This document shows, one piece after another, positions 1,650-43,920 of a stretch of DNA of 46,946 nt (its first letter is position 1; each line of letters opens with the position of its first letter). Origin of the DNA: Psammoneis japonica (taxonomy: Eukaryota); the NCBI GenBank assembly GCA_008632985.1, contig QPGO01000350.1, forward strand, positions 1 through 46,946. Reading direction: 5' to 3'. Made by a program: the position numbers and the translations under genes. Below the pieces are notes generated by a model. That model was not told where the DNA came from, searched no databases, and saw only the letters and a list, made by a program, of their open reading frames with translations.

Positions 1650-4600
1650 TGTTTTATTGCTCTCCGTTGACTGCAGGACTCAACCCTGCTTCATTTCAAT
1701 TCAAGCCTGCAAGGAGGGAGCTCACCAGCATCAACCTCTCCCGAACAGTGCGGACGACATTCAGCAATGAGGGGCAAAATCCTGAGCTGGTTGAGTGTAG
1801 ATCAATCAACAAGTTTAACAACATCAGAAACATCCAGTCATCCAGACTCAGACACGGGAACCACACCTGTGTCAAAAGCAAGAACAAGAGTGCACCCTCA
1901 AGGTGTGAAGAGAAGGAAGGTGAGAGCCTGAGCAAGGAAGGTCACCACCACAGCTCCACATGAAGATGCAGGTGGGAGACCCCACAAAGCCAAAATGACA
2001 AGGCATTTTGCCCAACTGATGCACTGCAGAGTGGACTGACACCGGCAACCACCCACAAAAACTTGAAGAGATTGATGAGGCTAAATGCATGGTCCAAAAG
2101 ACCAAAGCTAGCTTCCTTGCAACTTTTTCACACTAAAAATGCTCTCAAAGTGTCCAAAGCAGCTTGTCACTGTGCTGATGCAGTGGCACAACTGGCAGAA
2201 CATGTGTGCTGTCACCTGGCTGTTGACAACATGCCCGACCTTGTGGCAAACAATGAGAAGGGATTTTGTGTTTGATTGCAATGGACTGGGCAGTCACCAC
2301 CTTTTTTGGGATGCTGTCAACAAGGCTGCAGGAACAAGGGAGCCCCCATCAGAGGGAGGGGCAAATTGGCCGAGGCCAAATCAAATCATGCACAGGTCAA
2401 ACCCGAGTTCTCCATGCATTTTCAACCTGCACTTCAATGTGGGTCCGATTCATTTGTTTTGGGTTTTTGCCACACAGACATGCCAAATTGTTCATGCAGC
2501 CATGCCGCTGTTCACATGCAGCTGAGCCTGTCATTTCCAGTTGTCACACCACCTGAATGACTTTGATGCATTGCCATTTTGCAGTGCACTCTTGTTTCAC
2601 ATTTTCACTTCATACTTTTGCTGTTTTGTTCCCTCCCATGTGGTCAATCAGCTGTTTCTTGTTTTGCCTTTCATTGCAAATTGTTGCTGAGCAACAACCA
2701 TGCTGCCTTCTGCAATGCTTCCAGAAACCACAACTCCTCTTCATCAATGTTGTCATTGTCCTCCATTGTCATGATCTCATTGCCCACCTCATTCATTGTG
2801 GCTGGCTTCTGTGCTGTTGGGGCATTCCCAGAATTGCTGGGACCACATTTCACCACATTGCTCTGCTGCGCGACCCTTGCTTGGTCTCTTTTTGCAAATC
2901 TCCAACCCCGACATTGCTCCCTTCTTGCTTGTTTTTCTTTCCCAACGCTGCACTTTGTGGCAAGAATGAGTCTCCTGTCCTTGAGCTCTTCCTCAAATTG
3001 CCCATGATGTCAGCAAGCTTCTTGTTCCAGCAAGGACTTGATTGGAGCCAATGTTTCTGCATGGTCTCCCCAAAGATGGTGAGCAGGAAGTGGCAGGTGC
3101 AGCAGCTGTGCACCTTTGCATTGTTTCTCCCCTCCAGCACATCCTCCAAGGACAGCTCCTCCTTGTCATGATCCTGCCAACCTGATTGTTCACAAGACAC
3201 AACAAAGCAGTGCAGGTTGGTGTTCATTGTCAATGCTCTGCAGCTGTTCCCACAATGGCACTTGCAGAAGAATGCCAATTTGAGTGCTCCACAGGTGTTG
3301 TTCCTTCATCATGTCATTTGTCTTCACACCCCATCCTTGGACATGTCCCACAATGACCACACCCTTTTGACTTGCAGCACATTGAGCATCTTGGAGAAAA
3401 CAGTTGTTGTCACCCTTTCGTTGTGGTGCCTTGTGGCCTTTTCATTCAGAAACTTGCACCCTGACAGAAAAACATGTTCTTGCAGCATTTTTTCAAAACA
3501 ATCTTGTCCCTCTCACTCATTTTGTCATTGTGTCATTTTTTCTTTCATTTGTCACTCATCACATCTTCTCTTTCATGACCCACATTGGAGGTGCTGGTTG
3601 CAAGAGCCCCACTGTGGTCACAACTGACCCCCCGCTCATCATCTGCGCCACCATCAACACGGGGGTGCATGTGTTTCCATTGCTTGCACTGCCCCCCCTG
3701 TGGTGCCTGCTCATTTCATTGTCTGCTGCAAAGCCAATGATTTCATCACAAGTTGTCTGAGCAGTTTGCACTGGTGTGTTGCTTGCCTCTTCTCTTGTCA
3801 GGCTTTGGTGTGGCAGGCTTGCTTGTCTGTCATGGTTCCTGGCTGCATGGTGCAGTTGTGTGTTTTGCTGGTTTCTGGAGAAGCAAGACTTTTGTCCATG
3901 GGATGCATTGTTCTAACCATGGCACCACCTGCTGCATTTGTGCACAGATTTGCCTGGCACTCTTGCATTGGAGCCCTCTGTCTTGCACATCCTTTCTGCA
4001 AATTTGAGCACCTGGTGTGCATTGTGGTTGGCAGTCTAAATTTTTTGCCACTGCCAATGCACACTCGTCAGCTCAAACATGATGTGCAGCTCATGATTTT
4101 ACTCTCCCACACTGCACATCATGTTGCCATGCCCTTTTTCCATGCCCCCAAGGCTGTGATTCATCTGACTCACAGTGATGAAGCTGTCTTCATGGAAACA
4201 ACTGTGTGGCCAAACCAATGGAGACAAGGAGCAGCCAACAGACAGCAACCAAGAAGCACAAGAAACCGCCAGCCATCCTGATCAGACAAGTTCTGACTCA
4301 GCTTGGTGAAAACAACACTGCAGCCAATGGGTTGGTTGTCCAACCCCAGGCAAGGGGCAGGGACAAGCTGGGTCATTGTTCCTGCAGGGATCCAGAAGCT
4401 TGTCAAGGGACCAGTCATTGGAGTTGCCATCATGGCCAGTGCCATGATGATGATCAGATGCACAGATTTGCTTCAAGTTCACTGTGGACACACCATGATC
4501 TCCATTGCAAGGAAGTTTCCCACAAAGGCCACCTTTCACCTCAACGTGCTGTCCTTCATGACTTGTGCTGGTTGCATTGACATGAACAAACAATTCCTTG

Positions 4601-7050
4601 ACAACAAAAAGATTCCAACCAGTGTGCGCTGTGTCAAAGAATTCTTTGCTGTCAAAACAAGTGTCAGATTTTGTTGTGCAAAAGGCTTTGAAAATTTGGT
4701 TTTCCCCTGCATGGCAAGTGACAACTTCCCCACTGTGATTTGCAAAGGCAGCACAAAGGTTCTTCATGATGGTTTCCACCATTTCATCAGCAACACTCTT
4801 GCATGTTAACTCCAAGGGAAGTGTCAGCAGCATCCACTGCTTTGCTGTGCCTTGCTGTTTTTGTTGACATTTGGGCAAGAATGATGAAATGGAAAGGCAC
4901 AAATCCAATGGCTGCCATCATCAACCCCATCAATCAGATGGTTGTCACAAAAATCTTTGAAGTTTGGAATGAGAGGTGCAATGGTGGGAAGACATGGCAT
5001 GGCACTCTCCCACTTGCAAGTGACAAGAATGTCCCACACTTCCTTTGCATCTTGCGTTGTCTGACAGAATCACATCAGCCATTGAGAAGCCCTCTTTGAT
5101 GAACCACACCTTGTGGGTGTTGTGAGGAACAATGGATGATGATGCAAGTGCCGCTGTGAAGGGCAGCCAACTCCTCTTCTCTTGTTGAAGCTTGTGGTTG
5201 ATCTCCATGACAGTGCATGCAACCAACCAGCCAATGTGAAGCTCCATGATGTGAATGGGTTTCAATTTCTGTTGGTCCACGGTGGCTGTGCACATGGCAA
5301 CTGCATGACAAGGCTGGGAAGACATGAGTGCCCAAGCACAGAACAATGACAGAGCACCAAGAAATGAAGTGAATGTTTGCAAAATCACCAGTCATCAGCA
5401 ACATTGACAGGAGAGGAAAGCAACTGATGACCATGAGGATCAACACTGCACTTCATCTTGACAACTTTGAAACCGGGGATGCACTTGTCAACCGGAGCAC
5501 CACTTCTGAAGTGTTCCATGCCAGTGCTTTGATGAGACTTGGGCAGAGAGTTGCAAACATCCCAGGAATCAATGTTCTCCTCCACCACCTGTCTGTCACA
5601 CTCTCATTGCATGCAACTGGTGGCAGCAGTGCATTGCAGATTGCTGCTGGCATTGCCAAAAACACCCCAAGACAGCAACACAGCAGTTTGTTTGGGGGGG
5701 TTCTCAAGCTGTTGTGCTTGTTGAAATGGCTTCCCAACAGAAGTTGGCAAGATGAACAGATGGCGCACAACATCCAAGATGGATCTCATTGTCTTTCTTG
5801 GTGTCAATGTCATTGGGGTCATTGTGGTTGAACAAAAATTTGTTGTCTGACAACCAACAAAGACTTTGAACTCAGTCAGAGAAACCAACAAAGGCCAGCA
5901 GAGCAACAGAATCTTCCAATTTACACACATGACTGATGCTTGCACCATTGCAAAAGAGCTTCCATCCAGTGTGCATTGACTTGCTTGAAGCACTGACACA
6001 GTCCTCAGGTGTGCCCAGCGCGATTGACGTTTGGCAACAGAGGAAGAAGAAGAGTGGGAGAATTGCAAGTCATGATCTCTGTCTGGCTGAACCAGATCTT
6101 TGGAAGGCATTTCACCAGCTTTCTTGAAAAAAGCCTTGAAATCCAAACAACCAAGGATGGGATGACCAACATCAAAACTGACGTGGAGGAAATCATTGCT
6201 GTTGCTCTGCTCAAAGCACGGCATCATGTGACAACAATGCCTCCCATCAATGCAAGCAGAAGCTTGGCCAGCATCAAGACTGAGCAACACAAAGTGAGTG
6301 CAGTTGATGTGCTGCCATTGCTCCTGGCTGGCCTTTTTGAGATTGCACAATTTTGGTGCACACTTTCAGCAGGAATCTTTGGGCTGCTTGCACACCATGC
6401 CAACATTTTCAAGTCCTCTCCATTTGCCAAGCACTGGACCAAGAATGGAGGCAGGACTCACAAGCAAAACAAGAGAAAGAGCTGGCTTGGAAGATGGAGG
6501 TGGACTGGGGGTGGCAACCACACATGGACTTGTGCCGAGACAGGCTCTGTGCATGCTGCGAGCAAGAAGAAGGCAGAGATCTCTTTTTTCATTTTGATGG
6601 TTGTGGCTCCTGCATGGAAAATGGAGCTCATTGGCATGCTGCAGCATGACTGTGACACCCACCCTTCAGGTGTCATGGGACACTCCACAGGCAAAACAGT
6701 GACAAATTTTGCCCTGCTGGAGCCAGTGACTCCCCCCCTTGAGCATCGGAAGAAAAGCTGGCTCCTCTGGCTTGTGCATCTTGACGCAGCAACAAAGAAG
6801 TGGAGCTCTGCAACCAATCTCACTTCAACGGTGCGGCAGTTCAATCATCCAATCATCCAATCACTCATCCACTCGTCACCTCATCACTCATCACACAATG
6901 CTGGCGTTGGGGAAAGCCAAGCAACCAACAAGCAACTGCCGGCGCCGAGTTGCGCGCGAGAAACATGTGGATGACGTCATCATGTCTGTCCTTCATTCAT
7001 CCGGGATTCCGCCGACCGTCCGAAAGCGCGCGCGCCACAGAATCTCCAGC
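1650..7050. mobile_element. Degenerate, TpA- and CpG-depleted repeat block of unidentified family
   Basis: Almost no TA over ~5.4 kb, with many overlapping Cys/His-rich, Tyr-free ORFs. 2198-2295 is homologous to 11688-11786. No recognisable catalytic motif. Confidence 0.55.
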
Positions 7051-7139
7051 TCTTTCTTGTGCCTAGAGTGCCTACCCTTCCTCTATCTCAACGCTTTTAT
7101 CGCAACCCCAATACCATCTTCTAAAGTCCAAGTATAGGT

Positions 7140-8021
7140 ATGGAAATGGCAGGCAATCTCATGATGCAATTGACTGTCGCTTTCCTCATGATTTCCGCGA
7201 ATCTCCTGTCCCACGCTTCTGTTGTATCAGGGTTTTGCTGTCGACGCGGCACGACACCACGACAAATAAGTTCATCCGCCTTGTTGTTGGACATGGTTCG
7301 CAACCGTGGACTCGAGGTACGAACGGAAAGTGCTACTCCTCAAGAGGGTGGAATGCAGCTATACATCAAGGCCGGTCCGGATGGTACCTCTGCGGGTGAT
7401 TGTCCCTTTGCGCATTACGTACAAATGGTTCTCAACGAAAAAGAGTTGGAGTACGAGATCAAGCCGACAACGTCTGAGACAAAGCCAAATTGGCTCGTGG
7501 AACACTATGAGGGAAAGTTACCAGCATTGCGACACCGTAAAGAATGTTATGTTGAGTCGGATGTGATTGCTCAGTATCTTGATTTCTTTTTTCAGGATCC
7601 ACCCCTGTCGATGAAAAAGCGTGACACACGGCAAGCACAGGATGCAGTCGATGGATTCTTTCCGGCGGTAGCAAAATACCTCAAGCACACGCCTGACGGA
7701 GATGACGATGATTTAGAACTGAAAGCCGATCTAGATGCATCGCTGAAACAGCTTGAAAACCACTTGCAACAAGATTCGAGAACCGGTCCGTTTCTCGTAG
7801 GAAATGGCGAGGCGATTTCTCTGTTGGATTGCTCATTGGCACCGAAACTCTACCATTTGCAAGTTGGTCTAGAAGAATTTAAGGACAAGTCCATTGATTT
7901 GGAAAAGGACTATCCAGCTGTCAAGGTGTACATGGAAACGATGTTTGAGCGGCCCAGCTTTGTCGATTCATTGTACCCGAAAGAAACAGTGGTATGGGGA
8001 TGGACTAACGCGAGAAGCTAA
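7140..8021 (+). CDS. DHAR: Dehydroascorbate reductase (GST/CLIC-like), with predicted signal peptide and plastid-type transit peptide
   Basis: Motifs LYIKAGPDG..GDCPFAHYV, KPNWL..EGKLPAL, ESDVIAQYL, SLLDCSLAPKLYHL and C-terminal VVWGW. Hydrophobic N-terminus ending SGF. The start may be a later Met (7161). Confidence 0.88.
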   Translation: MEMAGNLMMQLTVAFLMISANLLSHASVVSGFCCRRGTTPRQISSSALLLDMVRNRGLEVRTESATPQEGGMQLYIKAGPDGTSAGDCPFAHYVQMVLNEKELEYEIKPTTSETKPNWLVEHYEGKLPALRHRKECYVESDVIAQYLDFFFQDPPLSMKKRDTRQAQDAVDGFFPAVAKYLKHTPDGDDDDLELKADLDASLKQLENHLQQDSRTGPFLVGNGEAISLLDCSLAPKLYHLQVGLEEFKDKSIDLEKDYPAVKVYMETMFERPSFVDSLYPKETVVWGWTNARS

Positions 8022-8187: not shown

Positions 8188-8259
8188 GTTTGCTTGGTCT
8201 AGAGGTATGATTCCTGCTTCGGGTGCAGGAGGTCCCGGGTTCGATTCCCGGAGCAGACC
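8188..8259 (+). tRNA. tRNA-Pro(CGG)
   Basis: Acceptor GTTTGCT/AGCAGAC, D-arm TGGTCTAGAGGTATGATT, anticodon arm CCTGC-TTCGGGT-GCAGG, T-arm CCGGG-TTCGATT-CCCGG, followed by a TTTT Pol III terminator. Confidence 0.93.
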
Positions 8260-8354: not shown

Positions 8355-8877
8355 CTGTGCATTTACGTGGCTTTTACACCAGTCGCTTCGTGGGGCAATG
8401 CTGTTCGCCAGCCCCACCAATGAACTCTTTCTCAAGCAAACACACTTTGTGCACATGGGAAAGCTGCTCAAACTCGCACACTCATGCAATCACAACGGAC
8501 AGCAGCAAACACCACACTGAGCAACATTTGATGGTCATGACTGAGAGCTTCAGTCTTGGCTTTTCCAACCGAAAGTTTGAGCAACTGCTCAAACTTGCAC
8601 CCATCAGCATTTGCTGTGCATTTGCGTGGCTTTTGCACCAGTCACTTTGCTGGAACAATGCTGTCAGCCAGCCCCGCCAATGAGCTCTCTCTCAAGCAAA
8701 CACACTTTCACCTGCGCCACATGGGAAAAGTGCTCAAACGCGCACACTCATGCAATCACAATGGGCGTGAGCAAACACCACACTGAGCAACATTTGATGG
8801 TCATGACCGAGAGCTCCAGTCTTGGCTTTTCCAGCCAAAAGTTTGAGCAACTGCTCAAACTTGCATCTGTCATTTGC
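8355..8877 (+). repeat. Tandem duplication of a ~259-bp unit, each copy with the palindrome AAGTTTGAGCA-AC-TGCTCAAACTT
   Basis: Units start at 8355 and 8614 (CTGTGCATTT[A/G]CGTGGCTTTT[A/G]CACCAGTC) and align throughout. Confidence 0.9.
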
Positions 8878-10049
8878 CCAAACTTGGCAAGTTTGAGCAA
8901 CCCCTCAAGCTTGCACCACAGCAACCCTTCAAACTTGCACAAAAAGTTTGAGCAACAAGTGCAGCTGCAGATCAACCATGGCAATTTTTGGCTGCACAGT
9001 CGCGACAATCAAGCGCATTTTCAAGGATGGACCCGCGCGCCTTTCCCGTGTGTTTGTCAAGCCCTTCTGAGGGCCAACGCACCGGCAGGAGAGAGCTGCA
9101 TGCTCAAAGCTTCAAATGCCACTTGTTGGCCCACATGCCCTGTTGCCAGGTTGAAAAAACTGCCAATTTTGCTAAAAGAGCTGGGTTTCTTGTGGGAGAC
9201 AAGCAGCCGCAACTTTCTGGGGAGGACATCCAACAAGTGGCTTCCTCAGGTGTCATGATGACAATGGATCTCCTGCTTGCACGTGCCAGCTTCTGCTTTT
9301 TGCAAAAACTGAGCCATGTCAATGTGTTCATCGCCAGCACTGGGTGGGGCATCAACAATGCTGGGACAGCCCACACCCTCCACATCGCCTGCCCAGTCTG
9401 TCTCTGTCAGAAATTGTTGAAAAAGCACTCATGCACACCACCAGTCCTCTCCACGCTGCTGTGGCATTGTCATCTTGGATCAGAAAGCTGATCAAGCAAC
9501 ATGAGGACAGGTGTCCACACACCCGACCCTCCTCATCAATGAGTCATGTGTCCTGTGCCAGAAGCCCCAGCCATGCAAGGCGCCGATGGCCCACTGCATG
9601 AGTCAACACCCAGTGGCCCCACCGCACATCCCCATGATGACAGTGCATGAATGAGCTGTGCCACCATTTTGTTGACTTTCTGACTCCACCCTTTCCAGAT
9701 GGCAAGAGAGCCACATGCCAAAAATTGGAAAACCAGCACTGAAGCACAAGCTTTTCTTCTTGAGCCACCCAGACCTGGTTTTCAGCCCAGCACTGCCACT
9801 CCATTGACAGGCTGCACCAACGCAGGCTGGCTTGCACCTCCAGTGCACAAACGTGCAGCAGAAGTGCCATGGACCAGCCTGGATTGGTGCCGCCAGAAGG
9901 TGGTGCCTGATGGAAGCAGCTGATGATGGCACAGGTTTTGCAAAGTGGTGCCGAGTGCTTTGCTTCTTCTTTCAAGCTGTCTTTGAGTCATGGTTTTGCC
10001 ACAGCCATCAAGCTCTGAAGCCTGGCAGCCAGTGGAGCAGGTGCAATGT

Positions 10050-10800
10050 TCTTCAATGGAGTCCATCAGAGCATGCCACAATCCCCAGCCAAGCATTCTT
10101 GTCATTTTCTGGCCATCTCTGCAACAACTTTCTGGCACCTTCCTCATGTCCACAAGCCACTTTGTGTTGTGTGATTCCCAGAGATCCCACCATGAGTTCC
10201 AGTCAGGAGGGGATGAGCTCTCTTCTTGATGCTGATGAAGAGTCTCTGTTTGTTCAAATGAGCAGCTCAAACAACATTCCACAGCATCAACACATGCATC
10301 CATTGAGCATCTCACACCAGCCAACAGTGCTCTGATGTCTCTACAGCTGTCACAAGACACAACCACAATCCTGATCACAGACCATTTTGTCACAGAAACA
10401 AGCTTCCAATGCCAAAGCAGGGGAAATCATGGAGAGGCAGCATCATCTCAAGCTTGCCACAATGCTTGTGAAGACCTTGCAGAAACTTCTTCTGCCAGGA
10501 CTCATTGGGCGGGCATTTTGAGACATGGCTGTGGCCTTGTGTGGGACAACCACATGACAAGCAGTGGAGCCTTGCCAGACTGCAATGATGGATGAACTCA
10601 TTCATCAGGAGAGTGGACACATGTTGCTTGACCTGCCCCCTCCATGAGCATCTCACAGGACACCCCACCATCACCCTGTCAGGTCATCAGCAAAAAAGCA
10701 CAACACTGCCCCAGCAAGCTCCGCAGCTTCTCCCAATTCTTGGGTTGCACATCCACCATGTTTGTCAGCTCCTTCCATTTTGACAAGTTGGACAGATCAG
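10050..10800 (-). mobile_element. Degenerate 3' fragment of a LINE ORF2 (zinc knuckle and terminal W-rich motif)
   Basis: The minus strand gives CLSCGCPTQGHSHVSKCP, QSTVGWCEMLNG and WNSWWDLWESHN. These parallel CIHC..EDRDHILWC, QEEIGW and WEQWWDLWDSHN in the LINE at 22.3-23.1 kb. Confidence 0.6.
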
Positions 10801-11856
10801 CATTGTCACCCCACATGCCAATGTGGACAAGGACAGTTCTGTCCTTTGCTTCAACCAAGAAGCCATGGCACCCTTCCCCGATGCATTGTCAATTTGCAAA
10901 AATCACACAGAGCTGCTGTCACTCTTGTTGACCAAACCACCACAAGAGTGGGCTCAGAAGGCTCCAACTGGAGCCAGGAAACAGCACGAACCACAGGGGG
11001 TCAGCCTCACAGCAGACCCACCCTTCATGCTCTGTGGGCATCATTGCTCATCTGTCTTAGACTTTTCTTGTTTTGGGCACCACCCAAGGGTCACATGGAT
11101 CCCTTTCAAGAACAGAACAAGGAGTGGGCATGTCACAGTCAAATGAGCTGGGGGGGAGTCCATGTTTGCAGTCCAAACCCTTGCAAGTGAACTTGGACAA
11201 GCGACTCTCAGGGAGTGCCCCCCGCATCATGATGTTCTTTGATCAGGAGAGCTGGAGCCCCATGCCCTTGTCCTTGTCTCACTCAACTTGAGCAACAGAT
11301 GGCACAGCATCACCACCCACAACCCCTGAAAGATGCATCCAGCCCACACCCCAGTCTTGCATTGAGAGGGTGGGCAAACCTCATGACCAACATTTTGAAT
11401 GCCAAGGCACTGTGTCCAAGAGGCCATTTGGTGGCCAACTTGCCAGGAATTTTCCTTGCCTGCTGCGTCCCAAGGACCCTCAGAAACAAATTTACAAAAA
11501 AGTGATTTTTAATTAAAAATCCAAGGTGGTGTGGGTGCAAATTTCATGTGTGTTTTACACACACAGAACTCAGCGCTGCTGTGTTTTCCACACACAAATC
11601 TCGCCAAAGTCACCCCACCCACTGAACCCCCCCTCACTCCATGACTCCATGGCGATGGAAACTTGAACATTTCACATGTGACAAAATGAACATGCCGCTG
11701 TGTCCTGGTTGTTGACAGTGTGCCCAAACCTTGTGGCAAGCAACAAAAAAGGATTTTGTGTTTGTTTTCAATGGGCCAGGCAGCCAGTGCTGGGCAGAAA
11801 GGGGAGCTGTGCTAGCGCGACAACCTCAACCTCATGTTGACAACAGCTGTTCATTC

Positions 11857-11860
<4 letters not shown>

Positions 11861-11916: not shown

Positions 11917-11918
<2 letters not shown>

Positions 11919-33804: not shown

Positions 33805-34198
33805 GACACGCTCCAGGTCCAGGTGGGACCTCATGCTGCTGATCTGTGACATTGACAGTTTTTTGAATCTCGTCGCATGTTGTGCGCGCAGATTTCTGCG
33901 TGATTTTTTGACATTTTGTGTCATTTCATGGCACACTTGTTGAGCGATCCGTCCAACAACTTTTGACATTTTTTGTTGCAGCACGATTCTACAATGTCTT
34001 AAGAATCGCACAGGGCAGGTGAATTTGCAGAAACGTCAAGTGGCGCAAGAGGCAAAACTGTGCCACAAACTTGGCCGTTTGTTTGATGTTGAAGACAAGT
34101 GTGTCCACCAGCTAAATTCTTGTGCTGCGGAGCTCGCACGCAGAATTCTGCGGGCCCAATCATGTCACACCGAGTCCCACCCAGGGCTGGAGTGCGTC
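33805..34198. mobile_element. MITE copy 2 (394 bp, inverted relative to copy 1, 4-bp TSD GGTT)
   Basis: TIRs GACACGCTCCAGGTCCAGGTGGGAC / GTCCCACCCAGGGCTGGAGTGCGTC; GGTT at 33801-04 and 34199-202. The empty site is visible in the paralogous segment at ~30715. Confidence 0.88.
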
Positions 34199-34949
34199 GG
34201 TTGGCCAGCTGTTGATCTCCATGGGGCCAGGCAGAGAGGGCAGAGGTGTGCAAGAGGGGGGCATGGGGAGCTCCTGCTGGTGCACAAATTTGCGCTTGTG
34301 TCCAAAGCGCATGTGCGACAAAGTGGCGTTCATGGGGATTCCCTGGGAACCCACATTCCCTGCCATCAAGCAAAAAAATTGTGGAAGACCAAGCTGAGGC
34401 TCTCAGGGGCACACGCTTTGTGACCTCTGCCCTTGACGGCAGGTGCAGGAGGCTTTGGTGTGCATTGCTGATGGGGGAGCACACAGGACAAATCAGCTGG
34501 AGGCACATTCTTCCACTCGCACACAGCTCAATTTGAGGCACATTGAGTCAGCTGCAAAACATGTGCTTCGCGCAAAAAATCGCCAGTCTGATGAGTTTGC
34601 CAATGTGACCGCAGAGTCATCACGCAGAAATTGTGTGCGTGGAGCAGCACCAAGACAAGTCTGTCTGTCCTGAGTGAATTTTAACTTTGCGAAAAATGGA
34701 CTTGACTGTTTTCTGATCAGGCGCATTTTTCTTCAACACATTTGCAAAAATGCGCCTGACAGTCAAGTCCATTTCTGCACAAATTGTGTGAAAATAACAG
34801 TTTCAGTGCAAAAACGTGTAGATTCTACAGGCCTCATTAACTTGTGCGTTCAACGTCACGGGTCATTTTCAAGAGATTCCCATTGCATTATTTCACAACA
34901 TGAGCTTTTCTTGAGTTTAAGGACTCAAAAATTGCATTTCTTGGATGTT

Positions 34950-35035
34950 GCCACTATGTCCGAGTTGGTCTAAGGAGCAGCACTTAAGATGCTGTGAACA
35001 TTCAGTTCGCGTGGGTTCGAACCCCACTGGTGGCA
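34950..35035 (+). tRNA. tRNA-Leu(TAA)
   Basis: Acceptor GCCACTA/TGGTGGC-A; anticodon arm CAGCA-CTTAAGA-TGCTG; long variable arm TGAAC-ATTCA-GTTCG; T-arm GTGGG-TTCGAAC-CCCAC; TTTT terminator. Confidence 0.93.
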
Positions 35036-35069
35036 CTTTTGCACAAAAGCACATTGAAGCATGGTCAGC

Positions 35070-35227: not shown

Positions 35228-36169
35228 AATCGTCGATGTTTCTCAAAAACGTGGCATGTCGTGCACAAACTTTTCATGTGTGTAAGATCTTTGATGCATG
35301 AAGAACATAAAAAAAATGAGAATTGGTGCACGGACTGCCTCCATCACAGACTTGTGGCTTGCTGTTTTTCGCCACGGTGAAGCACAGTGAAGCTCAGGAA
35401 AAATGATGTAAAACACGAGCCATTCGGCCAAACTCGAGCTTAAAAAAGCAGCAACCGGCCACCATTGAGATCGCGTCACAGTGTCATTGGAAAGCTCATG
35501 GTGCAAAATCCAACGGATGCGGCATTGGTTGAAATGGGGTTCTGCATTGGCCGAAATGGGGCTCTGCATTTTGACTTTTTTTTCGTCCAGATTTTTCAAT
35601 GGCAAAAAAACTTTGCCACTTTTCATGCACCTCTGGTGAGCGCTCTCTCTGGCAAGCAACAGCTGTGCACAAGAAAACATTGTGCCTTTTGGGGGGGCTT
35701 TTTGGGGCGGGGCGCATGACACTGCACTGCTTTTGTTGCACAAACTGGCTCAGAGGGATGATGTGCCAATCTCTGCACTCATGCCACCAAAGAGAGACAA
35801 GATTTGTCATGTGGGTTTTGTGGCCCATGGGTGGCAAGAACAATTTCCAATTTTCCACTCTTTCCACCATGGCGCAGCATGTGCAAATGTCAAGATGTGC
35901 GACAGACGAGATTGACCAATCTCTTGGGTGCGCACATGCCTTTGCCTTGCAATTGACTTGGCTGCTGGTGACATCAGTGCTGTTGCAGTCCAGCCAGCGC
36001 ACAACACTCCACCAGCCAAAATTTGTCCGGCTGGTTTGTGGCTGCTGTGCTCCAGCAAATGACACTGTGAAGCTGCCATCAAGGGGGCAGAGTTTGTGGT
36101 GCTTGCCGCCAGCTGGCTCACCTGCTGCTTGGACTTTGCACACACTTGCTCAAGAGCTCCTGCAACAAA

Positions 36170-38427
36170 GGACTGGCGGACAACGCCACAGAGCTCGCAT
36201 CGTCAAGGCCATCGAAGACCACGAATGGAAAGTGAACGGCAATCCCGAGCTCACCAAGTTCGTCTGCTCTGTCAACAACGACGAATGCGAGGAAGTCCTT
36301 GCCTGCAACGACATCATGAATCACATTGAGCAAGAAGACGAAGACACTGCTGTTTGGAAATTCCGATGCATCGTGTCACACGAAGGACCTCTGAAGCCTC
36401 ATGACCCAACCTGGAAAGGCTCAAGCTGCAACATCATGCTTGAATGGGAAAGTGGGGAGATCACGTCCGAGCCTCTTGCCATCATCGCCAAGGACGACCC
36501 CGTCACCTGCGCCGTCTGTGCACGAGAGAACGGACTTCTCGACACGGATGGCTGGAAGCAGTTCCGCACCATCGCGAGGCGCCAAAAGAAGCCATTTTGC
36601 ATGGCCAACCAAGCCAAGCTTCGCTCCTTCCGCACTGCACCTCGCTGCAAGTGCGGATGCGAAGTTCCCCGGAACTGCAAACACGCCATGTCACTAGACG
36701 AGCGCAATGGCAACCGCAAATGGGGAGACGCAACTAATCTCAAGATGGACCAACTCGAGGAATGCGAAGTCTTCCATGACTGCGGGCCCTTCGAGTCTTC
36801 CACTCCTCCTGAGGGACACAAGAAGATCCGAGTGCACCTGGTGCATGACGTGAAACACGACGGTCGCCACAAGGCACGACTCGCAGCCGATGGGCACCTC
36901 ACGGACGTACCTGTCGACAGTGTCCACTCCGGAGCAGTCTCCCTCCGTGGCCTTCGGCTGATGATTTTCCTGGCTGAACTCAACGAGTTGGAGACATGGG
37001 CCACCGACATTGGCAATGCCTGCCTTGAAGCCACCACCAAGGAGAAGCTCTACATTGCAGCCGGACCCGAATTTGGCAAACTCAAAGGACACATCCTTGT
37101 CATCCACAAGGCCCTGTGTGGACTGCGCAGCTCCGGTCTCCGCTGGCACGAGCGCTTCGCCGACTGCCTGCAAGCTGAAGGCTTCTTCCCCTGCCACGCC
37201 GAACCCGACATTTGGATGCGCAGGAACGGCGACCACTGTGAACACATTGCCGTTTGTGTGGATGACCTCGCCATTGCTGTGAAGGACCCTCAATCTTTCG
37301 TCGATGCTCTCACGGAAAAGTGCAAGTTCAAGCTCAAGGGTGCGGGACCCATTGAGTTCCATCTGGGTTGCGACTTTTCCCGGGATCCCGACGGCACCTT
37401 GTGCCTGTCTCCGCGCAAGTACATCGAGCGCATGGTCGACAGCTGCACCCAACTGTTTGGGGAGAAACCCACCACCAACGCCCTGTCACCTCTGGAGAAG
37501 GGCGACCACCCCGAACTGGACACTTCCGAACTGCTGGAGCCCGATGGCATTCACAAGTTCCAGTCCCTTGTTGGTTCACTCCAATGGGCAGTGTCTCTTG
37601 GTCGAATTGACATCACCACGGCCGTCATGTCACTCTCTAGCTTCCGAGCTGCGCCCCGTCAAGGCCACTTGGATCGTGCCAAACGCGTCTGTGGGCACCT
37701 CTCCAAGATGCGACACGGCGCTCTCCGCGTTCGCATGGAAGAGCCTGACCATTCGGATCTCCCTGCTCCGGCCTGTGAATGGATGCATTCTGTGTGCGGC
37801 GAAGCAGAAGAGATGATCCCGAAGGACGCTCCACTGCCCCTTGGCAAGTTCGTCACTGCCACCCACTACGTCGATGCAAACTTGCACCATTGCATGCTCA
37901 CCGGATGCTCTGTCATGGGAATGCTCCACTTCCTCAACAAATTCCCGGCTGATTGGTTCTCTAAGAAGCAAGCCACCATGGAGACTGCGACCTGCGGGTC
38001 TGAATTTGTTGCCGCAAGGACTTGTGTCGAGCAGATTGTTGACCTGCGCATCACCCTGCGCTGCCTTGGCGTCCCGATCCGCAATGTCAGTTACATGTTC
38101 GGTGACAACAAGTCGGTTGTAGACAGTGCCACCATCCCGCACTCCAAGTTACACAAGCGACACACCGCACTGTCGTTCCACCATGTGCGTGAGGCAATCG
38201 CCTCTGGTTGCCTTGAGTTCCACTTCATCGAAGGCTCCCGCAACCCTGCTGACATTCTCAGCAAGCATTGGGGTTGCTCCCAAATCTGGGACCTTCTCCG
38301 CCCCCTCATGTTCTGGAACTTCATTCCATCCGAAGTCGAATCTGTTTCTGTGACTCCTCAAGCAAACTGGGGAGTGACAGGATTTGAACAGGATTTGGGT
38401 GCGCGCGAAATGTCGCGCGTTGTTTAG
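36170..38427 (+). mobile_element. Ty1/Copia (CoDi-like) pol fragment: RT (RVT_2) plus RNase H, with conserved Tyr converted to Cys/His; likely inactive
   Basis: KIRVHLVHDVKHDGRHKARL, WATDIGNACLEA, KALCGLRSSG, IAVCVDDL, FHLGCDF, DWFSKKQATMETATCGSEF, MFGDNKSVV, NPADILSKHWG. Possible PPT GGGGAG followed by TG at 38369-38376. No gag or integrase core was seen. Confidence 0.93.
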
Positions 38428-40494
38428 TTTACCGCGCACAGTTTTGTGTGCTTTAGTTCCGCGCGTTCGCGCACGATGTAGTTTGCTTTCGAGCCACAAG
38501 GCACAAGAATGACAACAGCAGCCCGATTGTGCCGACTCACACGTCTTTCGGCTCCTGCAACGGTCTCTGAGCAGAGACTCATCTGCCATTTAGACAGCAG
38601 CAAGGAGTTGTTGTTTGAATTCTTGCCATTTGCTTTCAATTTCCATCACAAGCTCTGGCACAGATGTCACCTTTCTCGAATGGTGCAATCACGGTTCTTC
38701 TTGCCTGCCCATTTCAACTGCTTCTCTCATTGATGTGCCTTTGTTTTGTCATCATGACCAATCTCATGCATTGGAAGGAAGAGGCAGCTGGCATTGAGCC
38801 CTTTTGGCTCGTGTTTGCCAATCAATTTTTTTCAGCATTTTTCTTTTTCCTCATGGGCGAAGTTCCAGGACAAGTTTCAGCGCAAATTCCACATGTTTGT
38901 GAGAGTCACATCAGATGGTCAACTTGCCAAACTGTCAGCTGCTTTCTGTCCACACCTCTCAGGCTGCAATGTGCACAATGCAGATCATTGCAGCATTGTC
39001 AACAATGCCCAACATTGTCAAGAGAATGACTGTTGACTTCGGCGCACAAAATTAAATTCGCCGAATGCATCGAACATGAGGCCACGAATTCTGTCAAAGT
39101 GCCACTTAAAAACCGAGCTCCCAAAAGATTGGCCAGTTCTGAAAGTGATGGCCAGAATGTCCAATGATTGAAAATGATCATCTTGATTGTTGCGTGCCCC
39201 ACTTTTGTGGGTTCCCCCAGATTTTCGGCACTCCAAAACAAAATCACGTGAATCAATTGTTGCTCACATCTGAAAATGCTCCATTCAACACATTTGTGAT
39301 GTGAGCAAGCAAATTTCTGCCGATGGAGATTTGCTCAAGTCTGGTGGTTGAAGGGTCAAGTTTTCTGCCTCGTGTGGCGAACAATCATCCTCCATTGTTG
39401 CTGCTCCCAGAAGTCTGAATTTGAGACTGGCTCAGCCCGGGTTGTTGGTCATTGCTTTGTGTCGTGCTCTTTCTCATGTCGAAACATTTCCAGACTGCCT
39501 GTTGTGCCTTTGCAATTGCAGCATCAAGCGATTTCACTTTGATGTCATTTTGCTGGTCCTGTTTTTGCTGCTGCCAGCTGTTTCCGGCGGGTGCCGCAGA
39601 AATGTGGCATCAATCTCGACTCATTGTCACATGTCCCTGCTGCATTACATTGATGCACTGGGAGTGTGGGCCAGCTTGTTGCTGGAATTGTAGAGCGGAA
39701 GCGAAACAGCACTTTACATTGTGTTTTATCTTGCCGGAAACAGAAGCAAGATGACATTTCAACATTGACCGTGTGTGTGCATTGACCGTGCGTGTGTCCT
39801 GACGAGCGCATCTTCCGGATTCGCGATCCCGAATCCCGATTCTTCCCAATGACTCCAGACTCCATTGCTGATCCAGATTGGCAGATCGGAGAAACATTCA
39901 AATTCACCATTCTTGTAAAGGAGGAGCCGCAATGCTTTGCTTTGATTTCAGTGGCAAAGCTGCAATTGTTATGATCTCCTTTGCCTCACAGAATGCTCTC
40001 TATTTCTTCTTCACATTCAGTTGTATTCTCGTTTTCCGTGACACCCACTCGGTTCCATCACACATGTTCCCTTTTGCTTTTGCCACTGTTGCACGTCCTT
40101 TCTCTCTAGAGGGAGATGGAGTATCTAGTTGATGCCGTGTGAACCCTAGCGTATCATGAAGGTGTCACTTGTTGTCCCTTACACCTCAATACATTCATCG
40201 CTTTTGAAACGACAACACTGACATGATGCATTGTGTGCCGGCCTTTTGCACTCGACAAACAGGTACGGATGCTGCGGTTCCTGGTGCTCTGAATAGTTTC
40301 CTGGATGAGGCGGAGCTGGAGATGCATCTCTGGACCACTGGACAGTGTTGTGGTCCCCTATAGCAAAGCGAGTTTTGCAAATTCACGCTGGCTGACGCGG
40401 TCTAAAAAAGGCAAAGTTCAGTAGGCTGACGCAGTAGCGTTTCATAACATCCTTCAGAGGCTTCTTATAATATGAAGATAAATTCTGGTCTCGT

Positions 40495-41147: not shown

Positions 41148-41440
41148 TTTAAATCACAATGTTGCGTTTCTTTTTAAACAAAAGACTTCAAAACAAGGGC
41201 AGCGAAGGCGGGATGCTTCCTATGTTACTTGCACTGCGAGTGACGACGGTAATGAGGCATGCGATGGTGATGAGTGAGGTGGTGCGTGGTGAATGACAGT
41301 ATGTTGTATTCCGCGTTCCCGCGGTCTGTGCGCGGCGGTGGCCCCGCTTCCGGGCGTGGCGCGAAGCGAGATGAAAGCAACCAAACGCGCACGGCGCCAC
41401 AACTTCTCACATGGCGCCCTTCATCTCGCTCGAAAAGCCT

Positions 41441-41443
<3 letters not shown>

Positions 41444-41474
<31 letters not shown>
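41444..41474. repeat. (CT)15 microsatellite at the edge of a TpA-depleted block
   Basis: Perfect CT run. Confidence 0.95.
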
Positions 41475-41476
<2 letters not shown>

Positions 41477-41479
41477 ACC

Positions 41480-43920
41480 CTCCAGAGATCCAGTTCTGAG
41501 AGCAGAGTTTGTCAACATGGGTTCCATCCATTTTCACGGACTTGAACAGAGGAAACCCACTGGCACTCACGACCACACAGTGCACGCTGTGTTCACCAAC
41601 AAGAACAACAAAAAGAAAGCATGTTGCTCTGCACAAAAGCACGCCCAAAGGCAGTCGACCACACCAGCTTTGTTGGGCAATGTGTGTGCAGCTGCAATGT
41701 CAACAATTCCCATGAAACCTTTGGCACAAAAAGTCAAATGAGAAATTCTGCCCTCCCACTCGGTGCGCACCCAATGTGCAGGAAACACTGTGGGCTGCAC
41801 TTTCCCAAGATGCTGGGTTTCAATGCCAGACCACATGCACCACAGACTTTGCAGCTTGCTCACACTGAAAAGAACAGCTTCCACCACCGGAGCTGTGCTG
41901 CCATTTGGCACTTGTCATGCTGGAAGTTTTGCCAAATTTGCCTGACTGGAGCACCTCTTGTTTTGAGCATGACAGGATGCTCAGAGCTGTGTGGGTGTGT
42001 GCTGTGTGCAGTGTGCGGTGCGACAGGTCTGACTCTGTGCAAAAAGCTTCTCCTTGATGCAACTTCAGTGTGGCGGTGCACAAGGTGTTGATTGATGGCA
42101 ACTTGGCACTCTGTGCAAGAAACAGCTTTAAAGCTGACAGCTTTTTCTGTTGCCAGCACCCCTGTCCTTGTCTGGAAGTTTCATGAGTGCAGAGCTTCCT
42201 GTCAGTGTGGTGTGCTGCTGCTGGCTCTCCCATTGTGATGAAAACTTCAGAAATGAAGTGACAAGAGGGGTGAAGCCAGGGATTCCTTTGAATTGGCATG
42301 CTTGGAGCTGTTGCACTTTGGCTTGAATCTGCTGCCAAAACAAGACTGTTCAAAAGTTTGAGAGCTGTGGGCTGCAGTGCTTGTTGTCAACATTGGTGCT
42401 GGCTGGTGTCACCAAATGTGGACAATGAGGTGCAGAGCATTGCACATGGGACAGTTTGTGCTTGTTGTGTTCTCATCTGTTTGGCCTTGCAGCACGCGCA
42501 ACACTCATGACAACCATGGTGCCAACTGTGGCATGGCTTGCCCGTGGACTCCACAGAAAATGAGAAAACATTTGTGCATGGCTTGGCACAGCAATGAATG
42601 ATTGCAACTCAGCTTGTTCTCCTTTTTTGACAACACTCAGATTTGTTGCCACAGAAGCAAACAAGTTGCCACCAGGTCAAAGACCAGCACTTGCTTCAAA
42701 AATGCAAAGAAGCCTTTCTTTTGTGCACAGGGAGGTTGTTGACAGCACTGGCAGACACTGTGTTTGCAGGCTGTGACTCAAGGAAATGCCAGAAAGTGAA
42801 GACAGCAAGTCTTTTTTAAACACCCAAAGCTGCAGCTGGGGCATGTCTGAAAATGAACCATCTGAGAGTGAAGGCACAACAGAGATCACTGGTGGAGAGA
42901 CATCTCCAGCAAATGAGCGCTGAGGAAAATGCAACATGAGAGAAGTCTGCAACAGTCTCTTTTGGGCAGGAACTTTGGGCTCACCATCTCACTGAGCTGA
43001 CACTTTGGTCTGAGCTGCACGCTCCTGGCAGCAGGCAAGGCAGGCCAACACCACAACATGACCCAGCACAGATGACAAAGGTCAAACAAGCACTGCAGAG
43101 AGGATCTGTGAGAAATGCCAGAAATGCATGCTTGCCTCAGCAAGAGGCAGGCAAGAAGCTGCCTTCTGTGCATCTGGGGGCAACAAGAACTTTGGTGCAG
43201 TGGGCAGATCCCCAAGGTGTGAAACAAAAAGCAAAATTTCTTCAAGCACTTTCTTGTCAGAGCCTGTCTGCACAAGTGAAAAACAGAAAATGAGAATCAA
43301 GGGCATGTGTGAGACACTCACTCATTCCTCACAATTGCCACACCAGTGCAGGGCAAAAACCAATTGCAACACCTCCAATTGGGCACTGTGCAGCACCAGA
43401 AGCAGCTTTCTTCCTCCAAATCTTTTGCTCCACTCTGTCAAAACTTTGCCTCCTTGGCAATGCCAACAGCCAGTTCCAGACAAACCTCATCCACTGCAGC
43501 CTTGCCATCTTTGGCAGCAATCAATTCTGTTTGTTTTGTTCCAGTGTCTTTCACAAGCAGGCTGTGGAATCAGTGTGTGAAAATTTGAAGAGAGAGCACA
43601 TTGGGCAAAAAGCAACTGGGGAGGTGAAACGCCAATTGCGCACTGCGGTCATCAGTGAATTTGATCAAACTTGGCCCCAACAAGGCATGGTGCGGTCTCA
43701 CAATGAAAGTGAAGAAGCAGGTGTCACGAGGTGATTCGAATGGCAGATTCATTGTTTTGGTTTTCAAATGGCTGCACCCATGTTGCCGCAAAGTGTGGAC
43801 ACCTCATGCAATGTTGGAATTCATCGAACGACTTGTTGGAGAGTTTGAGTGAGATCAAGGAAGCAACTGTCCTGTCTTGCACCAGTTCCACCAATCAAAT
43901 GGCGAATGGGCCACAATGGG
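41480..43920. mobile_element. Degenerate TpA-depleted repeat block of unidentified family
   Basis: Almost no TA until ~43927, with Cys/His-rich spurious ORFs. No recognisable motif. Confidence 0.5.

What the first reader, a model, noticed from the sequence alone, without database searches (positions are those of the whole stretch)
1650..43920. Repeat-targeted TpA->TpG/CpA hypermutation ('reverse RIP'): candidate genome-defence system
Seen: five multi-kb transposon blocks are nearly free of TA and rich in TG/CA, while the genes, introns and tRNAs between them have ordinary TA content. LTR, LINE and DNA (MITE) elements and a tRNA fragment are all affected. Both TA->TG and TA->CA occur on the same strand, which means A->G at TpA on either DNA strand. 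Established: fungal RIP does the opposite (CpA->TpA), and 5mC decay only removes CpG. Inference: a DNA-level, repeat- or heterochromatin-directed mutator. Candidate mechanisms are a TpA-preferring adenine deaminase (TadA/ADAT- or ADAR-like), deamination of a modified A, or Pol-eta-type WA error-prone repair. I know of no described pathway of this kind but could not search.
Basis: partly seen in the sequence, partly recalled or inferred. Interest (0 to 1): 0.93.

Follow-up and report, generated by a model that had tools for sequence, protein, structure and literature searches.

The report
TpA-to-TpG/CpA hypermutated transposons in a diatom
Five transposon-filled stretches of a diatom genome have had nearly every TA step rewritten to TG or CA while neighbouring genes are untouched, the footprint of a targeted A-to-G DNA mutator found in print only for one unrelated alga, in a 2026 preprint.

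Summary
Five blocks (31.6 kb) hold 114 TA where about 1,230 are expected. CpG is also reduced, TG and CA rise by the same amount, and block edges are sharp. Comparison with unmutated relatives gives the direction. At 44 conserved tyrosine positions of a LINE and a Copia element, 5 are kept, 24 became Cys (TA>TG) and 12 His (TA>CA). A tRNA-Leu fragment inside a block shows both of its TAs changed to TG. Both strands are hit, almost only by transitions, site by site. TAT is the most mutable context and TAA the least. Host genes, tRNAs and short apparently high-copy repeats are spared. An independent contig set confirms the sequence and shows TA/TG and TA/CA polymorphism inside blocks.

A 2026 bioRxiv preprint shows the same TpA-only A:T>G:C hypermutation of integrated viruses in Bigelowiella natans. 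This window is from a diatom, so it is a second, distant lineage. New here are saturation across retrotransposons, coupling with CpG decay and a +1 base preference. The enzyme is unknown; an ADAT2/TadA-like adenine deaminase is only inferred.

The parts
1650..7064 (.). Block B1: TA- and CpG-depleted, origin unknown (no transposon protein recognised)
   Evidence: TA o/e 0.033 (12 TA), CG 0.184, TG 1.84, CA 1.82. The right edge is sharp: no TA for 1142 bp, then 9 TA in 7064-7139. No significant Pfam match (two hits below their cut-offs) and no homologues. Polymorphic TA>TG at 2614, TA>CA at 4100, and TG/CA doubles at 2572-3 and 6793-4 against run X1.
8375..12300 (.). Block B2: TA- and CpG-depleted, with 260-bp tandem units at 8354-8872
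   Evidence: TA o/e 0.050, CG 0.241. The left edge is sharp, 116 bp after tRNA-Pro. Weak tblastn match to a LINE C-terminus at 10402-10563, E 1e-4.
19200..34682 (.). Block B3: 15.5-kb nest of hypermutated elements
   Evidence: TA o/e 0.066, CG 0.344. Contains the LINE, the LTR-like pair, the tRNA-Leu fragment and the repeat 20704-21350 / 31400-32054.
22429..28527 (-). Near full-length LINE (AP endonuclease, reverse transcriptase, C-terminal region) with frameshifts
   Evidence: tblastn of P0290 residues 13-1915 of 1934. Weak Exo_endo_phos at 27542-28147. Of 21 conserved Tyr columns, 2 kept, 8 Cys, 8 His, 1 Asp, 1 Phe, 1 Gln. ORF 22275-24491 has 0 Tyr in 739 aa.
30716..31105 (+). Left copy of an LTR-like direct repeat
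   Evidence: Pairs with 34196-34607. 385 columns, 50 mismatches of which 40 are transitions; RY-coded identity 96.8% over its 339-bp core 30716-31054 / 34196-34531.
34196..34607 (+). Right copy of the LTR-like direct repeat; block B3 ends 75 bp further on
31173..31208 (+). Copy of the 5' half of tRNA-Leu (with 6 nt of its upstream flank) inside block B3
   Evidence: Aligned to the intact gene at 34950-35036: both TAs are TG, its CG is CA, plus one C>G.
35441..39646 (.). Block B4: TA-depleted but still CpG-rich, judged the youngest
   Evidence: TA o/e 0.081, CG 0.719.
36109..38394 (+). 5'-truncated Copia-type pol (RVT_2, RNase H)
   Evidence: RVT_2 E 1.4e-22. tblastn P0003 residues 723-1473. 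CVDD in place of YVDD. Of 23 Tyr columns, 3 kept, 16 Cys, 4 His. Tyr 0.4% against 3.7-5.0% in 11 homologues.
41307..43928 (.). Block B5: TA- and CpG-depleted, origin unknown
   Evidence: TA o/e 0.018 (3 TA), CG 0.289. The right edge is sharp: no TA from 42817 to 43928, then dense.
7125..8018 (+). Spared host gene (DHAR/GST-type) between B1 and B2, used to place the organism
   Evidence: GST Pfam domains. Every hit whose source name gives an organism is a diatom, the first being Seminavis robusta at 67% identity. TA o/e 0.56 in 7065-8374.
8188..8259 (+). Spared tRNA-Pro(CGG)
34950..35036 (+). Spared tRNA-Leu(UAA) in a 0.76-kb TA-normal island between B3 and B4
12472..12625 (.). AT-rich short repeat (second copy 35071-35248) that keeps its TAs although the contigs laid over it sum to a high depth
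   Evidence: Summed X1 depth about 2394 in the bin 12007-12673 against about 61 elsewhere; the tool warns that this is not a copy number.

Best explanation
The blocks are transposon and other foreign-type DNA of a diatom that was hit in place, at DNA level, by a mutator. The mutator turns the A:T pairs of 5'-TA-3' steps into G:C. TA becomes TG when the A of the top strand is hit and CA when the A of the bottom strand is hit. It runs to near saturation, stops within a few tens of bases of the block edges, and leaves genes, tRNA genes and unique intergenic DNA alone.

Shown:
- Direction, dinucleotide specificity, use of both strands and near-exclusive transitions.
- Independent site-by-site outcomes.
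- A +1 preference: TAT most mutable, TAA least.
- Sparing of host DNA.
- Co-occurrence and correlation with CpG loss.
- Higher TA polymorphism inside blocks.

Inferred:
- The same silenced, CpG-methylated chromatin state that causes CpG decay marks the DNA for the TpA mutator.
- TpA loss is faster than CpG loss.
- The enzyme is a polynucleotide adenine deaminase of the TadA/ADAT2 kind. Its natural tRNA target, A34, always follows U33 (recalled knowledge), and the resulting inosine is read as G at replication.

The process destroys coding capacity (Tyr>Cys/His and other changes), so it would act as a genome defence like fungal RIP but with the opposite chemistry. It is the same kind of process as that reported for integrated giant-virus and virophage DNA in Bigelowiella natans.
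For: Composition and mass balance:
- Blocks have TA o/e 0.056 against 0.551 outside. The TA loss (-3.54 points) plus CG loss (-2.97) is matched by the TG gain (+2.94) plus CA gain (+3.40).

Direction from outgroups:
- Of 44 conserved Tyr columns, 5 are kept, 24 are Cys (TGY), 12 are His (CAY) and 3 are other. An independent MAFFT count on Copia gives 27 Tyr columns with 2 kept, 16 Cys and 4 His.
- Relatives of the Copia family have TA o/e 0.49-1.02 over 80 loci.
- The tRNA-Leu fragment has both TAs changed to TG.

Both strands:
- LINE 8 Cys to 8 His; Copia 16 to 4.

Mutation after the copies diverged:
- Five repeat pairs show 38 adjacent CA/TG double mismatches; the next commonest double type has 5.
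- The pair 20704/32054 has 23 such doubles in 642 columns.

Still ongoing or recent:
- In the 17 displayed X1-versus-window differences inside B1+B2, 2 of the 24 block TAs are TG or CA in X1 and there are 2 TG/CA doubles. None of the 4 displayed differences in unique normal DNA is at a TA.

Context and pattern:
- Among surviving TAs, TAT readings are 5.6% against 27.7% outside and TAA 43% against 25% (chi-square 69, p 7e-15). ATAT, GTAT and CTAT are 0 of 108.
- TG/CA order is random along the blocks, runs z -0.2 to +1.2.
- Edges are sharp.
- TA and CG depletion correlate across 60 block windows, rho 0.43, p 5e-4.

Sequence confirmation and precedent:
- The block sequence is confirmed by separately assembled contigs at depth about 61, the same as the genes.
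- In B. natans mutation-accumulation lines, 230 of 231 mutations in two viral insertions were A>G or T>C, all of these at TpA, and an ADAT2-like candidate was named.
Against: - No genome, methylation map or raw reads were available. Targeting by methylated heterochromatin and the enzyme are therefore inference.
- In the LTR-like pair only 6 TG/CA discordances occur, and CpG decay alone could give about 5 of them (my estimate). That element may have arrived already TA-poor, or its LTR was natively TA-poor.
- CA/TG doubles cannot be assigned to a TA or a CG ancestor.
- B1, B2 and B5 are not shown to be transposons.
- Copia shows a 16:4 strand bias (p 0.012) that the LINE lacks, unexplained.
- displayed only 40 of 139 differences, so polymorphism counts are partial.
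- T>C through a modified thymine cannot be told from A>G on the other strand.
- This is one 47-kb window only.
Confidence: 0.7

Rival explanations
1. Editing before integration. The RNA or cDNA of retroelements is hyper-edited (ADAR-like on RNA, or a deaminase on single-stranded cDNA, as APOBEC3 does to retroviruses), so copies arrive dead and already TA-free.
For: Block edges are very sharp. The LTR-like pair shares most of its TG/CA states: 66 concordant against 6 discordant. The two identified elements are retroelements.
Against: Sense-strand T>C is common: His is 12 of 36 Tyr changes, and 8 of 16 in the LINE. Editing of the transcribed RNA cannot give this. A host tRNA fragment is affected. 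TAs inside B1 are polymorphic at the same locus between the window and X1. The pair 20704/32054 has 23 independent TG/CA discordances. In B. natans the process hits single-copy integrated DNA viruses in place.
Confidence: 0.1
2. It acts in place and is targeted, but through a modified base rather than an adenine deaminase. One example is thymine of TpA oxidised to 5-hydroxymethyluracil by a TET/JBP-type enzyme and mispaired with G. Another is deamination of a methylated adenine.
For: TA is its own complement, so T>C and A>G cannot be separated from sequence. Site-by-site random strand choice would suit an enzyme that reads double-stranded TA. The link with CpG methylation decay shows these blocks are chemically marked DNA.
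Against: No tool result bears on base modification here. Modified thymine at TpA in dinoflagellates and 6mA at ApT (not TpA) in other protists are recalled facts, not tests.
Confidence: 0.15
3. Artefact of sequencing, base calling or polishing over modified DNA.
For: Both depleted dinucleotides are classic sites of base modification. The sequencing platform is not on record.
Against: Separately assembled k-mer contigs of run X1 carry the same TA-free sequence at depth about 61, equal to the genes. One contig of 4,691 bases differs at 7 letters. X1 differs from the window at scattered sites, so it is not a copy of it. Frameshifts and other decay in the LINE show old, real degeneration.
Confidence: 0.02
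4. Native composition. These elements were always TA-poor (foreign origin or selection against TA) and nothing was mutated.
For: TA is under-represented everywhere in this window (o/e 0.55 in genes).
Against: Tyr is 0-0.4% in the three long element ORFs against 2.9-5.0% in the homologues compared. 39 of 44 conserved Tyr positions are changed. The catalytic YVDD reads CVDD. 80 related Copia loci have TA o/e of 0.49 or more. The tRNA fragment has a known ancestor.
Confidence: 0.02

Closest known systems
TpA-restricted A:T>G:C hypermutation of integrated NCLDV and virophage DNA in Bigelowiella natans (Mettrop et al., bioRxiv 10.64898/2026.01.13.699255; abstract, Results and Discussion read; its supplements are closed)
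   Same: TA>TG and TA>CA only, both strands, confined to foreign or transposon-type DNA, host genome spared. Low-TpA coding sequences there are enriched for reverse transcriptase and DDE domains.
   Different: The organism there is a chlorarachniophyte (Rhizaria) and here a diatom. There the viral regions are only partly depleted (Rho TpA 0.45) and 124 clusters were found in about 95 Mb. Here five blocks in 47 kb are saturated (o/e 0.02-0.08). The preprint's main text has no mention of CpG, flanking-base context, diatoms or other species. Here there is no mutation-accumulation proof.
Repeat-induced point mutation (RIP) of ascomycete fungi
   Same: Saturating, dinucleotide-specific transitions that ruin transposons while sparing genes; mutated copies diverge independently.
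   Different: RIP is C>T at CpA and makes TpA (as recalled; abstracts). Here TpA is destroyed and CpA/TpG are made. RIP lowers GC, while here GC is 0.494 in blocks against 0.468 outside. Duplication as the trigger is not shown here. RIP's strand-coordinated runs (recalled) are absent.
5-methylcytosine deamination at CpG in methylated transposons (DNMT5-dependent CG methylation of transposons in the diatom Phaeodactylum tricornutum, PMC9998398, abstract read)
   Same: CpG>TpG/CpA loss in the same blocks (CG o/e 0.18-0.72). CG/TG polymorphisms against X1: 7 of the 17 displayed differences in B1+B2.
   Different: It cannot remove TpA. B4 and the stretch 6740-7064 have lost TA while keeping CpG.
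ADAR hyper-editing of repeat-derived double-stranded RNA; ADAT2/3 and TadA tRNA adenine deaminases
   Same: A>G with a preference for a 5' U/T (preprint Discussion; U33-A34 is recalled).
   Different: Those enzymes act on RNA. Here the changes are inherited DNA changes on both strands, including T>C on the sense strand.

Membership tests
B. natans-type TpA hypermutation of foreign DNA | Changes are almost only A>G / T>C transitions | tested here: met
   36 of 39 changes at conserved Tyr codons are TA>TG or TA>CA. TA+CG+TG+CA is conserved, 24.19% against 24.36%.
B. natans-type TpA hypermutation of foreign DNA | Restricted to TpA dinucleotides | tested here: met
   TA falls from 3.90% to 0.36%. 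AA, AT and TT change by less than 1 point, explained by flanks of lost TAs. CpG loss is a separate, slower signal.
B. natans-type TpA hypermutation of foreign DNA | Confined to integrated foreign or mobile DNA, rest of the genome normal | tested here: met
   Blocks against genes, tRNAs and intergenic DNA. LINE and Copia identified. The origin of B1, B2 and B5 is unknown.
B. natans-type TpA hypermutation of foreign DNA | Directly measured elevated de novo rate in the region | not testable with these tools
   Only an indirect hint: 2 of 24 block TAs and 2 TG/CA doubles differ between the window and X1, among 40 of 139 differences displayed.
Fungal RIP | C:G>T:A at CpA, raising TpA | tested here: not met
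   The opposite direction is seen.
Fungal RIP | Triggered by sequence duplication | tested here: inconclusive
   Short repeats with high summed contig depth keep their TAs, but they may be below a length threshold. Copy numbers cannot be had without the genome.
CpG decay by 5mC deamination | Loss limited to CpG | tested here: not met
   TpA is lost more completely than CpG. CpG decay is present but explains only part.
ADAR-type RNA editing fixed by retrotransposition | A>G on the sense strand only | tested here: not met
   Sense T>C (Tyr>His) is 12 of 36 changes, and 8 of 16 in the LINE.
Pol-eta WA-motif mutagenesis | Hits AA as well as TA, with many transversions (as recalled) | tested here: not met
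   AA is barely changed, 8.22% to 7.92%. 3 of 39 Tyr changes are not simple TA transitions.

The most novel reading that the evidence does not exclude
Diatoms, and perhaps much of the SAR supergroup, have a natural DNA adenine-deaminating genome defence. It reads TpA (best TAT) in CpG-methylated, silenced DNA and erases transposons and integrated viruses to saturation. That would be a chemical mirror image of fungal RIP and a natural counterpart of laboratory adenine base editors.
Probability: 0.4. Interest if true: 0.88.

Novelty: new member of a known kind. Interest (0 to 1): 0.74.

Why it matters
As far as I recall, no natural enzyme that deaminates adenine in DNA as a defence has been characterised, and laboratory adenine base editors had to be evolved from TadA. 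A TpA-specific, domain-restricted A>G mutator in diatoms would have four consequences:
- It would show that the process just reported in one chlorarachniophyte is phylogenetically wide.
- It would place the process in a group where CRISPR knock-outs are already done (P. tricornutum; PMC9998398, abstract).
- It would link the process to cytosine methylation.
- It would give a sequence preference (TAT over TAA) against which to test candidate enzymes.

There are also practical effects. Such relics escape repeat and homology annotation (no Pfam match above the curated cut-off in B1, B2 or B5). They carry long false ORFs because TAA and TAG stops are erased. They push local GC upward, against the usual mutation bias.

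Tried and rejected
- Whole genome: none is held, so there is no genome-wide profile and no deaminase screen.
- Sequencing runs: no RNA holder is listed. Only Logan contigs of one sample are served, so read-level checks were impossible.
- Run X2 has GT..AG joints and so behaves like RNA. Its contigs lie only on gene parts. The lack of cover on blocks is not evidence of silence.
- Organism through the protein atlas with the TIP41 ORF: unusable hits.
- Cluster look-up of 10 Copia homologues: no names.
- Pfam on 117 + 10 block ORFs: only a weak LINE endonuclease hit.
- Homologues of the 325-aa B1 ORF: none. Atlas on a B3 ORF: nothing.
- Rfam at E up to 1: only the two tRNAs. The tRNA fragment was found by blastn-short instead.
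- Terminal inverted repeats for a MITE in B1, B2 and B5: none convincing.
- Metagenome scan for Copia relatives. Its search patterns required Tyr, so it could not find mutated copies. It served only as a baseline.
- Among 160 Copia and 149 LINE homologues of 200 aa or more, none is as Tyr-free as the window's copies.
- Strand-coordinated clustering of TG against CA: none.
- Earlier findings of this scan: nothing on this genome and nothing relevant.
- Literature on the same signature in diatoms: searches found none. The SPLASH paper PMC9258296 (passages read) was irrelevant.

Full report
OBSERVATION. A 1-kb sliding profile shows that TA observed/expected drops from about 0.5-0.65 to 0.00-0.10 in five stretches, while TG and CA rise from about 1.2 to 1.7-2.0. 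From the positions of all 714 TAs I set the blocks at 1650-7064, 8375-12300, 19200-34682, 35441-39646 and 41307-43928.
- The blocks total 31,652 bp with 114 TA (o/e 0.056), 686 CG (0.355), TG 1.75 and CA 1.71. The other 15,294 bp have 597 TA (0.551), 786 CG (0.94), TG 1.25 and CA 1.21.
- At the normal-region frequency about 1,234 TA would be expected in the blocks.
- Of 60 500-bp block windows, 15 have no TA and 36 have at most one. The 27 normal windows have 8-35.
- TA-free runs reach 1885 bp. At 3.9% TA per position such a run has a chance of about e^-75 (my arithmetic).
- Edges are step-like. For example, there is no TA for 1142 bp up to 7064 and then nine TAs within 75 bp. Dense TAs run up to 8375 and then none until 9173.
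- The sum TA+CG+TG+CA is the same in blocks (24.19%) and outside (24.36%). The loss of TA (-3.54 points) and CG (-2.97) is balanced by the gain of TG (+2.94) and CA (+3.40).
- The smaller shifts are what lost TAs leave in their flanks: AT, TT, GT down and GC, CC, GG up.

IS THE SEQUENCE REAL. No genome is held. Only Logan contigs of one sample are available.
- Laid on window 1-20000, contigs of run X1 cover blocks B1 and B2 at word depth about 49-76 in most bins, up to 205 over the tandem units at 8005-9338; the genes lie at about 58-61. One contig of 4,691 bases differs at 7 letters. The TA-free sequence therefore stands in an assembly made separately from reads that support exact 31-mers at about 60-fold.
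- X1 is not identical to the window, so it is a second haplotype or strain, or the other allele.

WHAT ORGANISM. The intact GST/DHAR gene at 7125-8018 has as its named best hits only diatoms, at 55-67% identity: Seminavis robusta, Cyclotella cryptica, Thalassiosira, and Ditylum brightwellii, whose hit lists 65% identity. Further hits come from diatom transcriptomes whose names are cut short in the listing (they begin 'Chaeto', 'Eucampi', 'Aulac', 'Amphip', 'Entom', 'Astro'). There is no near-identical hit. The window is therefore from a diatom whose proteome is not in that collection. It is not from Bigelowiella natans.

WHAT IS IN THE BLOCKS.
- B4 holds a 5'-truncated Copia pol: RVT_2 E 1.4e-22 and tblastn to residues 723-1473 of P0003.
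- B3 holds a nearly full-length LINE on the minus strand, 28527 to 22429. It matches residues 13-1915 of the 1934-aa P0290, with endonuclease, reverse transcriptase and C-terminal region, broken by frameshifts.
- B3 also holds an LTR-like direct repeat (30716-31105 / 34196-34607), a 650-bp inverted repeat pair (20704-21350 / 31400-32054), and a copy of the 5' half of the neighbouring tRNA-Leu gene at 31173-31208.
- B1, B2 and B5 gave no significant Pfam match (two hits below their cut-offs), and the one B1 ORF that I searched (5997-6971) no homologue. Calling them transposons is an assumption.
- There are 23 ORFs of 200 aa or more in the blocks. My estimate is that about 3 would be expected even with TGA as the only stop. 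Part of this excess is relic coding sequence and part is the by-product of erased TAA and TAG stops.

DIRECTION OF CHANGE. Unmutated relatives serve as outgroups.
- In a MAFFT alignment of the Copia pol with 60 homologues, 27 columns have conserved Tyr. The window keeps 2, has Cys at 16, His at 4, Trp at 2, Leu at 2 and Phe at 1.
- In a tblastn-based count, the LINE has 21 Tyr columns: 2 kept, 8 Cys, 8 His, 1 Asp, 1 Phe, 1 Gln. Copia has 23: 3 kept, 16 Cys, 4 His. The codons read TGY and CAY.
- So 36 of 39 changes at Tyr are TA>TG or TA>CA.
- Tyr makes up 0.4%, 0.0% and 0.2% of the three long ORFs, against 2.9-5.0% in the homologues compared. The catalytic YVDD reads CVDD.
- Arg>Cys/His/Gln changes (8 of 39 Arg columns) show CpG decay as well.
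- The tRNA-Leu fragment has a known ancestor 3.7 kb away. Both of its TAs are now TG and its one CG is CA.
- Eighty related Copia loci from metagenomes have TA o/e 0.49-1.02, and their lowest 1-kb window is 0.335. The family is not natively TA-free. That scan's patterns required Tyr, so it could not have found mutated copies.

HOW IT BEHAVES.
(a) Both strands are hit. Tyr>His means T>C on the sense strand, which editing of the element's RNA cannot produce.
(b) Copies mutate independently. In five repeat pairs (1,753 columns, 309 mismatches, 216 of them transitions) there are 38 adjacent CA/TG double mismatches, against 5 for the next commonest double type. There are also 17 TA/TG or TA/CA and 37 CG/TG or CG/CA pairings.
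(c) The order of TG and CA along each block is random, runs z from -0.20 to +1.24. Strand choice is made site by site, without long strand-coordinated tracts.
(d) Survivors are not random. Reading each surviving TA on both strands, TAT is 5.6% in blocks against 27.7% outside, TAC 20% against 26%, TAG 31% against 21%, and TAA 43% against 25% (chi-square 69, p 7e-15). TTAA is 22% of survivors against 6%. ATAT, GTAT and CTAT are 0 of 108. The mutator thus prefers a T after the target A and dislikes an A.
(e) TA loss is faster than CpG loss. B4 has TA 0.08 with CG 0.72. The 325 bp before 7064 hold 22 CGs and no TA. Within blocks the two depletions are still correlated, rho 0.43, p 5e-4, n 60.
(f) It looks recent or ongoing. 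Seventeen of the displayed X1-versus-window differences lie in B1+B2. Seven are CG/TG, two are block TAs read as TG (2614) or CA (4100) in X1, two are TG/CA doubles, and four are other changes. Of the four displayed differences in unique normal DNA, none is at a TA. Only 40 of 139 differences were displayed.
(g) Repetition alone is not enough. An AT-rich short repeat and a 177-bp tandem array, both with high summed depth in X1, keep their TAs. The tool warns that this depth is not a copy number.

AGAINST A PURELY IN-PLACE HISTORY. The LTR-like pair has only 6 TG/CA discordances next to 11 half-decayed and 3 intact CpGs. A simple two-copy estimate makes about 5 of the 6 explainable by CpG decay. 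That element may have been TA-poor when its two repeats were made. The Copia strand bias (16:4, p 0.012) is not seen in the LINE and is unexplained.

MECHANISM. The best reading is a DNA-level, domain-restricted mutator that converts A:T to G:C at TpA.
- Near-exclusive transitions and the unaffected AA dinucleotide argue against Pol-eta-type WA mutagenesis.
- Sense-strand T>C, the tRNA fragment and the locus polymorphisms argue against editing of retroelement RNA alone.
- An adenine deaminase of the TadA/ADAT2 kind is attractive because its tRNA substrate A34 always follows U33 (recalled). The B. natans preprint names such a candidate. Nothing here tests this.
- A modified-thymine route (T>C) cannot be excluded, because TA is its own complement.
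- The link to CpG decay suggests that CpG-methylated, silenced chromatin is the targeting signal. DNMT5a-dependent methylation controls young transposons in the diatom P. tricornutum (PMC9998398, abstract).

WHAT IS KNOWN. A full-text search found bioRxiv 10.64898/2026.01.13.699255. I read its abstract, Results and Discussion; its supplements are closed.
- In B. natans mutation-accumulation lines, 231 of 302 nuclear mutations fell in an integrated NCLDV and a virophage region. 230 of the 231 were A>G or T>C, and all of these lay at TpA.
- Low-TpA coding sequences there are enriched for reverse transcriptase and DDE domains, and an ADAT2-like protein is proposed.
- The main text has no occurrence of CpG, context, trinucleotide, diatom or stramenopile.
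- Six further searches found no report of this signature in diatoms.

VERDICT. This is a new member of that kind in a distant and important lineage. New details are saturation of retrotransposons, coupling with CpG decay, a +1 base preference, site-by-site strand choice, sharp domain edges, and sparing of two short repeats.

Noticed in passing
window 13706-14733: Tandem array of about 177-bp units (63-81% alike) in TA-normal DNA, with high summed depth in run X1. It is not hypermutated.
   Followed up: partly
window 12472-12625 and 35071-35248: AT-rich short repeat in inverted orientation. One copy sits just after tRNA-Leu, next to a CG-rich stretch (35160-35235). X1 depth in its bin is about 2394 against about 61. 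It keeps its TAs.
   Followed up: partly
window 280-406 and 686-786: Contigs of run X2 skip these stretches with GT..AG ends, so X2 behaves like RNA and these are introns of the class-3 lipase gene.
   Followed up: no
window 15794-18506 (+): Gene with weak reprolysin-like metallopeptidase, Dicty_CTDC and EGF matches, all below the Pfam cut-offs.
   Followed up: no
window 6740-7064: The last 325 bp of block B1, next to the GST gene, hold 22 CpGs but no TA. TA loss here occurs without CpG loss.
   Followed up: partly
blocks, e.g. 22275-24491 (-), 35575-38427 (+): Very long open frames (739 and 950 codons) persist in dead elements because TA>TG/CA removes TAA and TAG stops and makes no new in-frame stop. 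Gene callers could take them for genes.
   Followed up: partly
window 2572-2573, 6793-6794: Adjacent two-base differences TG against CA between the window and X1 at the same locus. This is the pattern expected if two haplotypes resolved one ancestral TA (or CG) on opposite strands.
   Followed up: partly
L003, L004, L007 (metagenome Copia relatives): Some environmental relatives are strongly CpG-depleted (o/e 0.22-0.24) with TA about 0.5 and TG about 1.5-1.6. This is CpG decay without the TA signature.
   Followed up: no
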